Below, piece after piece: positions 8,701 to 63,084 of a DNA stretch of 64,000 nt (positions are counted from its first letter, which is position 1; each line of letters opens with the position of its first letter). The notes beneath the pieces are model-generated. The model was not told the origin of the DNA and ran no database searches. It saw nothing but the letters and a program-made list of their open reading frames with translations. Source of the stretch: Schmidtea nova (taxonomy: Eukaryota); the NCBI GenBank assembly GCA_044892505.1, contig CM097883.1:377270001-377334000 (forward strand), written 5' to 3'. The translations under genes and the position numbers were made by a program.

Positions 8701-10876
8701 AAGCCCGAATAAATTCAAAATTCAAAATATCTAATCATATTTTGAGATAGATGCCAAAATGCAAACTATTCTGTTTATTTTCAATTTTTTCAGACAATAG
8801 ATTAAAAAAAATCTCGAAATAATCGAATTAAAAAAATTATCTATTGTCTGAAAAAATGAAAATAAAATTAAAGAACATTATTTTATTCATTGATTATTTA
8901 TTGAAACACAATGGAATGAAAATGAAGAAAAATTATAATAAAGCTTAATAATTTATATTAAAATAATTCCGAATAAGTCATGAAATATAACTTGTTAAAT
9001 GCGGATATTTGGATAAGTAGAAGAAAGCCAGCTATCTAGATTAAGCCAAATATCCGTGAAATATGCATACCCCCATAATGTTTTTGGAAATTACGTAATT
9101 TTATATATTTTTTGAAAAATTGCCTAATTATACAAAAATTCAAAAATTGCATAAGATTTTTAAAATTATATATTTATGATATAATATTAATATAAAATTA
9201 TTATATAAGGCCGTATATTGATTCATACAGTTATTACACATTACTTTATATACTATATATAGAAAGTTATATATATATATATATATAAATGTAATGTGGG
9301 TATATATATATACTATATATATATATACTATTCTCAATAATTCTCATAATGACTATAGATCAAAATTTTTTTTTTATAAACAATAACAATATTTCGGCAC
9401 AGCCTTTNNNNNNNNNNNNNNNNNNNNNNNNNNNNNNNNNNNNNNNNNNNNNNNNNNNNNNNNNNNNNNNNNNNNNNNNNNNNNNNNNNNNNNNNNNNNN
9501 NNNNNNNNNNNNNNNNNNNNNNNNNNNNNNNNNNNNNNNNNNNNNNNNNNNNNNNNNNNNNNNNNNNNNNNNNNNNNNNNNNNNNNNNNNNNNNNNNNNN
9601 NNNNNNNNNNNNNNNNNNNNNNNNNNNNNNNNNNNNNNNNNNNNNNNNNNNNNNNNNNNNNNNNNNNNNNNNNNNNNNNNNNNNNNNNNNNNNNNNNNNN
9701 NNNNNNNNNNNNNNNNNNNNNNNNNNNNNNNNNNNNNNNNNNNNNNNNNNNNNNNNNNNNNNNNGGGGCAAAAATACTCTGTAAAAAATATTCGCCAAAA
9801 ATTACTTGTCAAAAAAGATTTAATTCATTTTAACTTTGATAGTCCTTAATGGCATTTAAAAATTCACATGTTTCGATGGTGTGTAACTAGTCTTCTATAT
9901 CCAGCATTCTTTTTAATTGTTTGTTTAAGAAATATCAGAGTTGATAACATCAAATGCACTATATCTTAATATTAAACAGAAGATATTTCTTCAACTTTTA
10001 TAGGCCTTCCTAAGAAATTTTTTTTAAATAATGCAAAATAAGTGTTATTTATACCTTCATTGCAAAAAAAATTCGTAATGTTCAATCAGTCAAATTAATG
10101 GAATATATACTAGTGCCGTAGGTTATCAGTGATAAGAAGCAAATATTTAGTCTTTAAAATATCTAAACAAACCATTTGATAGTATTTTACACTATGTTCA
10201 CCGTCTCAAATGAATGTAACAATCACAATCATGGCTTCCTCGAAATCCGCCGATGCTGACCTAGGAATCATTTCTGGAACTAACTACTAAAATAATTTTG
10301 TTATAACGCTTTTACTAATTTAAATTTATAACGATTTCGTTTATTTACATTCTTTCAGGCAAGATCAAAATATTTTTAATTTAACAAATTTTCGATTCTG
10401 CCTTTTTCAAGTGTTGTAAAACAAAAGATTTGTGTTAAATTTCAATTTCATGACCGGAAAGAATGAAAATTTGAGAAATCATAAATAAAAGATCAAAGAT
10501 ATACAGTAAACCTCTATTTTTCAAAATCTGGATTATCCGACATCAAAATAAAATTGCTTGAAGGCAAAAAAAAAACATAATTAGTTTTACTTATTTAAAA
10601 TAGACAACATTTCGTAAATGAAAGAATTATTTTTATTAGATTTAAAATTTTTAAATTTTACTTGTCCATTTGCCAATGAAAAGAAAGAAAAATATTCTAT
10701 TGGTGAAATTCTAATGAACAAATTACAATTTATTTAATATTTGAAATAAGATTCTTTATGCGACAACCCGAAAGCCATAATGTGTCAGATAAACCAATTT
10801 TTACTGTTTAAAGTTTTCTAATCATTCCTTTCGATGCCAAGGATCAATAATTACATCGTTGAAAACTCTGGCACTA

Positions 10877-10945
<69 letters not shown>

Positions 10946-13900
10946 TGTCCTTAATTTTTCATAAAAAAGAAATAATTAGAATACATCATGTTCCCCAACA
11001 AATCGTTTCTCCTCAATCTTAGAAAGACTTTTATGAAATATTAAGTATAATCACTGGTATTTTAAATTTTAGCATTATTGTTAAATAATATGAGAAGCCA
11101 AATAACAATTTTTGTCTGTATACTACTTCATTTTTGTCAAATAAACATTTTGTTTAACTTCTAAGCTAGCTTTTAACATTAGAGTGAATATTTAAGGTAA
11201 TGAGGAATGTTGTTATATATCATTATTTTATTATTTAATAGTATCTTATCAAATTAACCACCAATTAGCTTCACTTTTTTGATTTAATACACTCATATTT
11301 GGTTTGATATAAAACATAAAATTAAATTTCTTTCGCGAAACAAATTAATTAATAACAAGTGTTTATCAATTTCCTAAATGATTTTCAACACACAATATTG
11401 TGCGATATATATTATACAATTGCAAGATTACATAATATATTATACACTTCGAGTAATAAACAAATAATGTTATAATAGTAAAATGAATATAGTTTGAAGA
11501 AATGTACATCTAAACAACAATCTTTATTTTTCATACATTTTGAATGTATTAGCATAAGCCCTGAATATTTAGCCTCAGAACAGGGGTAACAGTTTATCTT
11601 TGAACCATTGTCTAATGACTATTATTCTGTTTTCTTTAAATTGAAAAGGCTACTTCAACAAAGGAAAAATGAAGTTTATTTTTTTGGTTAATTGAAAGAA
11701 AGTATCAGTGGAGCAAAACTTCCATCATTAGGTGTTGATATACGCCTCTAGATTGACAAGCTCAAGACATCTGCTGTCACGAAACACAGGACAGCAATCC
11801 AAACAATACTGAAATAGGAGCTGTACTGGTAGGAAGCACGGATTCATGTTCGACCACACAAACATGCAGAAACCATGTTATAAGAATTCGATAGCTAGGT
11901 AGGAATGCTTAAAGAAAAACATAAAACAACGAACCGAAACGCAAGTATCCAACAAAAATAATTTGAAAGCGACTATCAATGATTTACTTGACATAGTTCA
12001 TCAAGATGCAATGGAATTAATCAAGGTACCCGAAGGCAAATAATTTTTATGTGCACAACGTGAAAAAGAACGAAGTAGAACAATAGCTTATGTGGATAAA
12101 TCATTAAGTAAGGAACGAGAAGATAATGATGCAATGGAGAAGAAAAAATAAGAAATGGAGAATGAAAAAGCAATTAGAAATTCCTGTAATTGACAACAGT
12201 TTCCATTTGATTGATAATGGCAGTGACAGACATTCCACAATATCAACAGAAATACAGGCTACACCAAATGTAAAACAATGAATAAAACGTATGTAAAATA
12301 TAAGGTAAAACTCCAATAAAATTTATTGTTTTTAACATTGTATTAAAATTTTTTATCCTAAATATTACTACTACTGCTATTATTATTTCTACTATGTGTG
12401 AACTCTTTTGTCCAATCAAATTTGCATGTTATTAATAGTTTGTAATTTTACATATTTGATCTATAAATGAAGCTTAAATTTATAGGCGTACTTTTTCAAA
12501 GTTTTTCATTAAAAAAACAAGGAATCTACTTTAAGCATAAGGGGAAATTTCGGTACCAAAATGCTGAAAAATCATCCCCTAATGTTCGCCCTTTTAAACA
12601 ATTATCCATTATTACACTCTGTCATGTGAGCATTGTGTATCATAAAACATCTAGGCAGAATATGGAGATCTCAGTGAGACTGAGTGTCAAGATGATGAAG
12701 ATCGCATGTTTCTTCCTGGAAGGCTATTGAGACTCCTTCCTAGTGGATTACTAATGCAATGCCAACTCAGCCAGGAAGTAACGCGTCGAGTTAAACAATG
12801 CTACAAAAGCCACAAAGGAATGAGCAGGTGAATAATATTTATTTTCATTAAAAATTCAAATTAAATTATTTAATGTGCTAAATTGATAATCAATACTTCA
12901 TAATGAAATTAATTATTGCTTATTTTTCTTTGGTCACTTGCACAAAGTGGTGATTTTTATTGGAATATAAACATCCAATCAATTTAGAAACTCAAATTGA
13001 TGTGCGATTCTAATTCCATAATTTTAGTGATTTTAATTTTTATTGAATTAGTTTAGAATGGTTTTTCGTGGATATTAAACTTTGGCGATGCTATGAGAAC
13101 AGATCAACTCTGGTAAAGTTCTCCCGTAAAAGATAATAATTCGATAATCACCAATCTCACTAATTGATCCAATTATAATTCTTTATTTTCTGTTTCATTT
13201 CTTTTTTCAGATAATAAATCACGTTTTACACAAACTTGGATTTACTATCTGAAAAAAATGAAATTGAAAAAAGATAAAAGCTGATGAGGATTAAAGATTT
13301 AGATGTTTATTAGAAATTTTCCATATCCAATTATTTTCGTTAACACTTGCAAATTGAATACTTTTTCCTTCAGCCGCCTCGTCGTTAAATTGCTCTCTAT
13401 TGAGACCATTCCTCGGTTACCATATTTGTCTCGTGCCAATCCGACACACTCATTACCTTTCAACCAATTATTGATGCATAAATTCATTCCAAAAAGTTGG
13501 AATTTGTCATCACAATCATCTCTTTCATAAATTTGAGACTTGTGATCGATTTCGAATTTCATTAAAATTATCACTGGCTCTCAAATAATGACGCAATGCG
13601 CCAATGATTCAATACTTGCTCGACCAGATTTTCAAACTTATTTAAACAAATATTTAATTATTATTATCAACAATTCCCACAATGATGACTATAGATCAAA
13701 ATTTTTTTTATAAACAATAACACAATATTTCGGCACAGCCTTTATACACACTTGATAAAGGCTGTGCCGAAATATTGTTATTTATAAAAAAAAATTTGAT
13801 CTATAGTCATCATTATGGGAATTATTGATAATAATAATAAAATATTTGTTTAAATAAGTTTGAAAATCTGNNNNNNNNNNNNNNNNNNNNNNNNNNNNNN

Positions 13901-62870: not shown

Positions 62871-62894
62871 TAACACTTTTATATATAAATATAA

Positions 62895-63084
62895 TCATAA
62901 TTATCTTTTTGTTTCACCTTTGATCTTTTGTCTATTATTATTAATATCAATAATTCTCATAATGGTAAGACTATAGATCAGAAATTTCTTTAAATAAGTA
63001 CACAATATTTCAGCACAGCCTTTATCAAGTGTGTACTTATTTAAAGAAATTTTGATCTATAGTCATCCATTATGGGAATTATTG
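62895..63084. repeat. HHR repeat palindrome: full minus-strand unit (HHR 63000-63032) fused to a plus arm starting at GTGTAC
   Basis: Arms overlap at GTGTGTAC (63029-63036); the plus arm runs into a gap. Confidence 0.85.

What the first reader, a model, noticed from the sequence alone, without database searches (positions are those of the whole stretch)
9337..63084. Abundant ~140-bp repeat that begins with a minimal hammerhead ribozyme carrying a U3:A8 covariation
Seen in the sequence: 11 near-complete copies of ACAC-TTGATAA-A-GGCTGTGCC-GAA-ATAT-T-GTGT (13748, 21930, 23490, 27148, 50729, 50785, 51047, 51093, 51385, 58637, 63000), plus partial copies at 9387, 17391, 47660, 48471 and 54209. Each is followed by a conserved ~100-nt body and an (AAT)n or (GAT)n tail. 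Established knowledge: type-I hammerheads read helix I - CUGANGA - helix II - GAA - helix III - NUH; C3:G8 is a tertiary pair that tolerates U3:A8; minimal Penelope-associated hammerheads have a palindromic helix III and act as dimers. Variation between copies mostly preserves the fold (loop UGU/AGU, N7 U/A, H17 U/C, G.U wobbles). Inference: this is a self-cleaving, non-autonomous Penelope-dependent element at roughly one copy per 5 kb here. No ORF or MITE annotation would explain it.
Basis: partly seen in the sequence, partly recalled or inferred. Interest (0 to 1): 0.8.

Follow-up and report, generated by a model that had tools for sequence, protein, structure and literature searches.

The report
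Hammerhead-bearing ends of a Penelope retroelement
The repeat is the short end piece of an intact, protein-coding Penelope-like jumping gene with tens of thousands of copies in this genome; it carries a known variant of a small RNA motif predicted to cut itself, and most copies are short head-to-head pairs that likely arise when both strands of the target DNA prime copying of the same RNA.

Summary
The repeat is real, and the minimal type-I hammerhead reading with U3:A8 holds on sequence. It is not a separate non-autonomous element. It is the terminal repeat (pLTR) of an autonomous 2,767-bp Penelope-like element with an intact 865-aa RT + GIY-YIG ORF. One window copy (21962, minus strand) runs straight on from the GIY-YIG coding sequence. 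The '100-nt body' is the 5' UTR, start codon and first codons. The (AAT)n 'tail' is mostly target microsatellite. Genome-wide there are 43,020 exact motif copies; 11,404 hits hold the upstream 3' UTR and 993 run on into the ORF. Minimal hammerheads in Penelope pLTRs, the U3-A8 variant, inverted copies and the 30-40-bp tail are all published. Less ordinary: 54 of 58 head-to-head pairs join one tail-bearing and one tail-less arm, often inside ~12-bp target duplications, and 129 of 231 arms begin at the ribozyme's 5' edge rather than at its cut site. Four sibling families do not show this pile-up (4 of 51). The scan noted the same pile-up earlier in two other genomes (unchecked notes). Cleavage and transcription start were not testable here.

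The parts
21871..22488 (-). 5'-truncated copy of the autonomous element: GIY-YIG coding end, stop, 3' UTR, hammerhead, start codon, tail-less end
   Evidence: 626 nt at 91% to the full unit L032; 90% protein identity to P0001 residues 722-865
22054..22488 (-). GIY-YIG endonuclease coding end with Zn-finger-like linker (stop at 22054-22056)
   Evidence: Pfam GIY-YIG E 1.2e-6, 29.1 bits, cut-off 22.6
21930..21962 (-). Complete minimal hammerhead (U3 at 21958); start codon at 21892-21890
23484..23620 (+). Short arm with tail; hammerhead 23490-23522, predicted cut 23518/23519; small inverted remnant just upstream
9326..9407 (-). Partial arm, tail-less end, 5' side runs into N
10382..10414 (-).
13653..13842 (.). 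Head-to-head pair of two tail-less arms; the inverted repeat continues into the flanks
17391..17428 (+). Tail only, directly after an N stretch
27144..27252 (+). Single short arm, G10.1 changed to A
47640..47688 (-). Old subfamily copy, N7 = A, AAUU helix III
48468..48590 (+). Old subfamily copy with AAUU helix III and tail remnant, head-to-head to 47688
50675..50858 (.). Head-to-head pair (hammerheads 50729-50761 minus, 50785-50817 plus); right end in N
51011..51206 (.). Head-to-head pair, arms meeting at about -10/-11 (hammerheads 51047-51079 minus, 51093-51125 plus); both ends in N
51342..51510 (.). Head-to-head pair: minus arm truncated inside helix II, plus arm with tail and H17 = C
54209..54274 (+). 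Arm body after N, ending in a (GAT)n run (54262-54296)
58637..58778 (+). Older subfamily arm with tail; hammerhead broken
62894..63084 (.). Head-to-head pair: minus arm with tail (hammerhead 63000-63032), plus arm starting at +24/+25 on the helix I microhomology, right end in N

Best explanation
The repeat is the terminal repeat of an autonomous Penelope-like retrotransposon and carries a U3:A8 minimal hammerhead predicted to cut only with help (as a dimer or with the element's protein); the short copies are likely dead insertions copied from mostly uncut RNA. Positions are counted from U3 = 0. SHOWN: unit 2,767 bp = 2,598-nt ORF + 169 nt; the hammerhead lies 104 nt after the stop codon and 66 nt before the next ATG; copies end at about +89 or +125 (36-nt tail); head-to-head pairs join one of each; paired arms share subfamily and length class; target duplications are 9-15 bp, mode 12; targets are AT-rich or (AAT)n/(AT)n; most 5' ends fall at -11 to -8. 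INFERRED: the protein nicks both target strands about 12 bp apart; one nick primes reverse transcription at +125 and the other at +89 of the same pLTR-ORF junction; the two cDNA ends are joined by microhomology. When the junction used is the one at the 5' end of the mRNA, both cDNAs run off the RNA end after 100-135 nt, which I take to be the transcription start at about -11 (about 0.55 for this step). When an internal junction of a tandem transcript is used, long or full-length arms result. The hammerhead cut (+24/+25) is not what sets the copy boundary.
For: Intact ORFs flanked by the repeat in L031 and L032; RVT_1 E 1.3e-7 and GIY-YIG E 1.2e-6. Genome counts: 43,020 motif, 11,404 upstream 3' UTR, 993 tail-into-ORF junctions, controls 0. 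3' ends bimodal; 5' starts 129 of 231 in -20..0, 13 in +21..+30, 3 at +24/+25. 76 pairs, 58 classifiable: 54 long+short, 4 short+short, 0 long+long, binomial p 1e-12. 47 of 49 pairs share subfamily, 36 of 49 share both diagnostics (shuffle mean 20.5, max 27 of 5000). 24 head-to-head pairs among the first 100 upstream-extended copies versus 4 tail-to-tail. Target duplication of 7 bp or more in 10 of 16 non-microsatellite pairs, 5% in mismatched controls. Loose contig ends in four runs pile at -11..-8. Hammerhead: MFE of -11..+40 gives the hammerhead topology with helix I reaching -10; four sibling Penelope families have C3:G8 motifs with the same extra base, G10.1-C11.1, 3-nt loop II and palindromic helix III; an old subfamily swaps AUAU for AAUU (16 of the first 100 of 373 hits). 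Literature: two internal RT start sites flanking the tail, both strands cut and extended, ATT preference, uncut RNA as main substrate, protein-assisted cleavage in anole Poseidon (PMC11167929); promoter inside the pLTR in D. virilis (PMC2377424).
Against: No RNA data, so neither the transcription start nor cleavage is shown. The sequence at -11 is not a clear initiator in every subfamily. Four sibling families lack the pile-up (4 of 51 copies start in -20..+6, counted by eye after dropping 11 cross-family or spurious rows), so it is not a general Penelope rule; yet earlier notes report it in two other genomes, always at the ribozyme edge, which a chance promoter position explains poorly. No C3:G8 subfamily exists within this family (1 of the first 100 of 181 position-8 variants), so the 3:8 covariation is seen only across families. 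Helix II is only 3 bp, and in the centroid folds the helix I register varies. Two of 49 pairs differ in subfamily and one short+short pair in L105 mixes subfamilies. The four runs are one study, of unknown kind, possibly the assembly's own source. About half of the 234 arms come from loci chosen because they hold the motif.
Confidence: 0.75

Rival explanations
1. The short unit is a self-propagating non-autonomous element: solo copies are transcribed from their own internal promoter and mobilised in trans by the autonomous protein.
For: About three quarters of exact motif copies lack the upstream 3' UTR (11,404 versus 43,020). In the older subfamily B only 37 of 1,400 carry one exact upstream variant (a lower bound, other upstream variants exist). 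15 short arms with an ATC-insertion haplotype had no long counterpart in my sample.
Against: The commonest short haplotype is the same as the ORF-linked one (65 short, 23 long). Subfamily B also has ORF-linked copies (9 of 10 loci). Junctions differ from pair to pair, so the palindromic unit is not copied whole. In anole Poseidon the template needs ORF sequence about 55 nt beyond the start sites (PMC11167929), which solo copies lack. No tandem arrays of the short unit as in retrozymes were seen.
Confidence: 0.15
2. The ribozyme itself sets the 5' end: the core cuts in a second register at the upstream AU(A/U)|G site just before -11, or the folded or protein-bound hammerhead makes RT release right after passing helix I.
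For: The boundary equals the 5' end of the extended helix I. An AUH triplet followed by G precedes it in all upstream variants seen. Palindromic junctions where both arms stop at -11 exist (L147). Earlier notes saw the same edge in two other genomes (unchecked).
Against: The second register leaves helix I with one G-C pair followed by an A-A mismatch in the young subfamily; folding does not favour it. AUH is common in AT-rich DNA. Structure normally stalls RT at the 3' side of a helix, not the 5' side (general knowledge). Sibling hammerhead families show no pile-up.
Confidence: 0.12
3. Head-to-head pairs arise by fold-back self-priming of one cDNA (or of an antisense template, as proposed in PMC3846280) rather than by two target-primed events.
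For: Arms share haplotype and length class. Junctions lie on short palindromes and show small templated repeats.
Against: Either arm can reach further 5' (in L036 the tail-less arm is the longer one), whereas fold-back from a fixed first strand predicts one order. Both ends fall on fixed sites 36 nt apart, matching two RT start sites shown in vitro for another Penelope element.
Confidence: 0.2
4. The palindromic pairs are MITEs or DNA-transposon ends, and the hammerhead likeness is chance.
For: Inverted arms inside 9-15-bp duplications look like TIRs with a TSD. Rfam finds no hammerhead family in the window, only miRNA-like hairpin hits below gathering score.
Against: The arms are unequal at their outer ends and variable at the centre; the sequence is continuous with an RT + GIY-YIG ORF; sibling families carry the same motif at the same place. 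Rfam also missed the C3:G8 sibling motifs.
Confidence: 0.02

Closest known systems
Minimal hammerheads in metazoan Penelope pLTRs, including the U3-A8 variant of Schistosoma mansoni Cercyon elements (Cervera and de la Pena 2014, PMC4209133; read parts 1-2 of 4 and supplement passages)
   Same: Type-I layout, extra base between 9 and 10.1, G10.1-C11.1, palindromic helix III, U3-A8, tandem motifs about 3 kb apart around an RT ORF, opposite-strand pairs, mostly single truncated copies.
   Different: Helix II is 3 bp here against 7-8 bp in S. mansoni; about 43,000 near-identical copies against about 1,300 heterogeneous U3-A8 hits; U3:A8 is fixed in the whole family. Their S. mediterranea row is a different, C3:G8 motif that matches a sibling family here.
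PNL2_SM, listed directly after the Nematis rows in Fig. S2 of Craig et al. 2021 (PMC8557442; passages and supplement parts 53-55)
   Same: Endonuclease nearly the same as P0001's: 39 of 50 residues identical in the first block by eye, same shortened CxC linker, CCHH motif present. RT motif 4 resembles the two nematode rows.
   Different: Only the endonuclease rows were seen; no DNA, hammerhead or copy data for PNL2_SM were available, and the clade labels of the figure were not in the text.
Poseidon of Anolis carolinensis, PAc (Frangieh et al. 2024, PMC11167929; read parts 1-2 of 4)
   Same: pLTR includes the ORF start; two fixed 3' ends bracket a tail; AT-rich / ATT targets; no sign that cut RNA is the main template.
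   Different: In PAc the ATG lies inside the hammerhead and core is C3:G8; here the ATG is 41 nt past the cut site. The one-long-one-short pairing rule and the 5' pile-up are not in the parts I read.
Complex tandem / inverted Penelope insertions (Arkhipova et al. 2013, PMC3846280, passages; Craig et al. 2021)
   Same: Inverted 5'-truncated copy, tail at one end only, pLTR containing first codons, 8-10-bp TSDs, palindromes at the junction.
   Different: Here most insertions have both arms reduced to the pLTR, and the asymmetry is counted (54 of 58).
Hydra clade of Penelope-like elements (Craig et al. 2021)
   Same: Under 3 kb, DKT motif, CxCx5C-like linker, microsatellite targets.
   Different: CCHH is present here and absent in Hydra; RT motif 4 is canonical here and divergent in Hydra.
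Non-LTR retrozymes (bioRxiv 10.64898/2026.07.22.740005, read parts 1-2 of 5; PMC7229834, abstract start only)
   Same: Short, hammerhead-bearing, pLTR-related.
   Different: Retrozymes are direct tandem arrays of a non-coding unit; these copies are solo or head-to-head and continuous with a coding element.

Membership tests
Endonuclease-positive Penelope-like element | Single ORF with RT and C-terminal GIY-YIG | tested here: met
   865-aa ORF; RVT_1 E 1.3e-7; GIY-YIG E 1.2e-6 on the window copy (the L032 copy had no GIY-YIG hit in Pfam but is 90% identical there)
Endonuclease-positive Penelope-like element | Tandem or partial-tandem copies forming pLTRs | tested here: met
   2,767-bp units in L031-L033; arrays in the genome listing
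Endonuclease-positive Penelope-like element | Inverted 5'-truncated copy and 30-40-bp tail at one end | tested here: met
   76 head-to-head pairs, 36-nt tail, 54 of 58 asymmetric
Endonuclease-positive Penelope-like element | RT phylogeny sister to telomerase | not tested
   No labelled reference proteins were held; the 28 homologs carry no informative names
Nematis clade / PNL2_SM-like | Zn-finger-like linker before GIY-YIG plus CCHH motif | tested here: met
   Linker cysteines and CCHH conserved in P0001 and most homologs; near-identical to the PNL2_SM row
Nematis clade / PNL2_SM-like | Placement in the Nematis clade of an RT tree | not tested
   Inferred from row order and motif likeness only
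Hydra clade | CCHH motif absent, RT motif 4 divergent | tested here: not met
   CCHH present, RT motif 4 canonical
Minimal type-I hammerhead | Core CUGANGA/GAAA-UH or the U3-A8 variant, extra base 9.1, G10.1-C11.1, helices I and II | tested here: met
   7 of 11 window copies complete; 147 descriptor hits of the commonest form in held loci, overlaps not removed
Minimal type-I hammerhead | Palindromic helix III allowing dimers | tested here: met
   AUAU; AAUU in an old subfamily
Minimal type-I hammerhead | Covariation at 3:8 within the family | tested here: not met
   1 C3:G8 in the first 100 of 181 position-8 variants; covariation only against C3:G8 sibling families
Minimal type-I hammerhead | Match to an Rfam hammerhead model | tested here: not met
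   No hit up to E 10; sibling minimal motifs also missed, so this test is insensitive
Minimal type-I hammerhead | Self-cleavage at H17 | not testable with these tools
   No RNA run listed; needs an assay
Non-LTR retrozyme | Direct tandem arrays of a non-coding hammerhead unit | tested here: not met
   Copies are solo, head-to-head or ORF-linked
Independent non-autonomous (SINE-like) family | Haplotypes with no ORF-linked member | tested here: inconclusive
   Subfamilies A and B have ORF-linked copies; minor haplotypes not resolved genome-wide
MITE / DNA transposon | Equal terminal inverted repeats and a fixed internal sequence | tested here: not met
   Unequal outer ends, variable junctions

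The most novel reading that the evidence does not exclude
Every Penelope insertion of this family is a double priming event on one RNA junction, one target strand always at +125 and the other at +89, and the hammerhead, not a promoter, fixes the RNA 5' end at its own first base by cutting in a second register or by releasing the RT. That would give Penelope hammerheads a role in retrotransposition unrelated to their predicted cut site.
Probability: 0.12. Interest if true: 0.8.

Novelty: new member of a known kind. Interest (0 to 1): 0.42.

Why it matters
As an annotation it is ordinary: a Penelope pLTR with a published hammerhead variant. Its value is as a test system. The family is young, has intact ORFs and tens of thousands of insertions, so insertion rules can be counted. 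The one-long-one-short rule ties the two RT start sites found in vitro to the two target strands, which bears on the open question of how Penelope elements form inverted structures. The sharp 5' boundary gives a precise prediction for 5' RACE and argues that cut RNA is not the main template. A fixed U3:A8 core with a 3-bp helix II is a natural test of how small an active hammerhead can be. Head-to-head pairs form near-perfect hairpins (about -90 to -108 kcal/mol) that can be mistaken for miRNAs or MITEs.

Tried and rejected
Rfam scan of the window: no hammerhead family, only sub-threshold miRNA-like hairpins from the head-to-head pairs. Sequencing runs: no RNA holder listed; four contig sets of unknown kind from one study were laid and cannot show RNA ends. 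Per-copy conservation as a test of function: uninformative, because inserted copies decay neutrally. Within-family C3:G8 compensation: not found. Pile-up at the cut site: not found (3 of 231 at +24/+25). Splice or trans-splice acceptor at -12/-11: rejected, the AG is absent in subfamily B and no shared upstream sequence precedes the short arms (output partly cut). Two different RNAs per pair: not supported, arms are concordant. Hydra clade: rejected on CCHH and RT motif 4. Nearest-neighbour energy of the dimer (-7.6 kcal/mol against -6.5 for one monomer) gives no support for dimer stability and ignores tertiary contacts. Genome-wide test of the ATC-insertion haplotype: not done. Lunse et al. 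2017 (PMC5785218), which tests Penelope hammerhead dimers, was not held and may cover U3:A8 variants. One supplementary file of PMC4209133 was not searchable, and the figure supplements of PMC11167929 gave no text hits; either could already show the 5' pile-up. Paper searches that did not turn up the pairing rule or the 5' pile-up.
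Full report
Observation. All 11 listed copies and the five partial ones are in the window. Twelve positions match a 33-nt copy within 6 mismatches, against 0 in each of 30 resampled windows. Seven of the 11 have a complete hammerhead layout; four are damaged. 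Many copies lie head to head (13653-13842, 50675-50858, 51011-51206, 51342-51510, 62894-63084); Rfam reports these only as sub-threshold miRNA-like hairpins and finds no hammerhead. The genome holds 43,020 exact copies of the 24-nt core, control 0: one per 29 kb, so the window (6 exact copies) is above average.

What the repeat belongs to. Several genome hits were 2,767 bp apart. Those loci hold an intact 865-aa ORF between two repeats with an RT domain (RVT_1, E 1.3e-7). In the window, 22054-22488 on the minus strand encodes the GIY-YIG end (E 1.2e-6; 90% identical to the intact protein) and runs without a break into the copy at 21962 (626 nt, 91%). Counting from U3 = 0, the stop codon is 104 nt upstream, the predicted cut is +24/+25 and the next ATG is at +66. 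The '100-nt body' is therefore 5' UTR and first codons, and its internal AAT run encodes Asn. 11,404 genome hits hold the 3' UTR just upstream of the motif and 993 run from the tail into the ORF. The endonuclease is 39 of 50 identical, by eye, to the row PNL2_SM in Fig. S2 of Craig et al. 2021, listed after the Nematis rows. It shares DKT and a CxC linker with the Hydra clade but keeps CCHH and a canonical RT motif 4, so it is not Hydra. No tree with labelled references could be built. This likeness, and a sibling motif nearly equal to the S. mediterranea row of Cervera 2014, suggest a planarian host.

Is it a hammerhead? The layout matches the minimal motif of Cervera and de la Pena 2014, who already reported U3-A8 in S. 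mansoni Cercyon elements. The MFE fold of -11..+40 gives that topology, with helix I extended to -10; the centroid is less definite. Four other Penelope families in the same genome carry motifs after their GIY-YIG ends with C3:G8, the extra base, G10.1-C11.1, a 3-nt loop and a palindromic helix III (the family of L104 was found by the descriptor scan and its ORF link was not checked). Against them both 3 and 8 are changed and the rest of the core is kept. Within the family the 33-nt motif is constant across subfamilies A, B and C except H17 (U or C), while the next 15-20 nt differ. An older subfamily has AAUU for AUAU: 16 of the first 100 of 373 variants at 15.2; this is one evolutionary event. 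Against: single copies decay at core positions as fast as elsewhere (G12 altered in 9 of 139), there is no C3:G8 subfamily (1 of the first 100 of 181), and conservation could partly reflect promoter function. Cleavage is untested. Published minimal motifs cut weakly and only as multimers or need the element protein.

Insertion anatomy. From about 1.39 Mb (600 kb evenly spread, 461 kb around and including the window, 332 kb chosen for holding the motif) I kept 234 distinct arms of 304. 3' ends fall in two groups, about +89 and +125, the 36-nt Penelope tail. Of 76 head-to-head pairs, 18 had an end in N or at neither site; of the other 58, 54 join one long and one short end, 4 two short, none two long (p 1e-12). 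Of 33 short pairs examined, 17 sit in microsatellite, which reads through as one continuous (AAT)n or (AT)n tract, so it is target and not tail; 10 of the other 16 have a 9-15-bp duplication (six of 12 bp) against 5% in mismatched controls. Paired arms share subfamily in 47 of 49 and both diagnostics in 36 of 49 (shuffle mean 20.5). Long arms pair with long arms: 24 head-to-head pairs among the first 100 upstream-extended copies, 4 tail-to-tail; independence would give roughly 17 paired arms rather than 48 (my estimate).

The 5' boundary. 129 of 231 arms start in -20..0, peaking at -8 and -10; in the evenly spread sample 23 of 49. Thirteen start in +21..+30 and three at +24/+25. Few junctions pass -11. 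Contig loose ends in four runs of one study pile at -11..-8, which is not independent support. The four sibling families do not behave so: 4 of 51 copies start in -20..+6 (by eye, 11 cross-family or spurious rows dropped). Two earlier notes of this scan report the same edge in other genomes (unchecked); they prompted this control.

Mechanism. Frangieh et al. showed for anole Poseidon that the protein cuts and extends both target strands, prefers ATT, starts at two internal sites bracketing the tail, needs ORF sequence beyond them, and uses uncut RNA. D. virilis Penelope has its promoter in the pLTR. Joining these with the counts, I infer double priming at +125 and +89 of one pLTR-ORF junction, then microhomology joining. 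Use of the 5'-most junction runs off the RNA end at about -11 and gives the short pairs; internal junctions of tandem transcripts give long arms. Identity as a Penelope pLTR is near certain; double priming about 0.7; transcription start as the cause of the boundary about 0.55. Rivals are self-propagating solo units, a ribozyme-set 5' end and fold-back self-priming. No RNA run was listed.

Verdict. A real feature, rightly read as a U3:A8 minimal hammerhead, wrongly read as a stand-alone non-autonomous element. It is a new member of a known kind. The pairing rule and the 5' boundary were not found in searches or in the parts read, but tail-at-one-end is described in words, and one relevant paper and some supplements could not be seen. 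Interest 0.42.

Noticed in passing
L135 8623-8692 and 9004-9073 (minus strand): Two canonical-looking type-I hammerheads 381 nt apart (Rfam HH9 E 0.12, below gathering score): a retrozyme-like tandem; six descriptor hits of this motif in held loci.
   Followed up: partly
L113, L060, L093, L130, L102, L104: Four sibling families with C3:G8 minimal hammerheads; three lie after GIY-YIG ORF ends. The L060 motif nearly equals the S. mediterranea row of Cervera 2014.
   Followed up: partly
window 13627-13870: The inverted repeat of the pair at 13653-13842 continues about 28 bp into both flanks up to the N stretch: a fold-back duplication of one arm with its flank, not a normal long+short insertion.
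   Followed up: partly
window 4518-5642 (minus) and 16091-17032 (minus): ORFs that look like Tc1/mariner transposases by eye; not scanned.
   Followed up: no
window 3207-4124 (plus): 305-aa ORF resembling an IS1595/Merlin-type transposase by eye; not scanned.
   Followed up: no
window 31402-35259 (minus): Broken pieces resembling a gypsy-type LTR retrotransposon (zinc knuckles, RT, integrase) by eye; not scanned.
   Followed up: no
window 23200-23544 (minus): Fragment resembling a hAT-type transposase between the long arm at 22488 and the short arm at 23484.
   Followed up: no
L035 and L040: (AAT)n tracts of up to about 2.8 kb lying between successive element ends; these tracts appear to be repeated targets.
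   Followed up: no
L029 (arm starting at -157): A copy with the whole hammerhead deleted between two ATTGTG-like repeats (upstream site and cut site).
   Followed up: no
L130 about 4450-4500 (plus): A short stretch that resembles a flatworm spliced-leader exon as I recall it (recalled, no call supports it; Rfam gave no such hit).
   Followed up: no
window 14665-15621, 25147-25788, 56557-57468: Long tandem arrays with 21-bp, 5/10-bp and 14-bp units.
   Followed up: no
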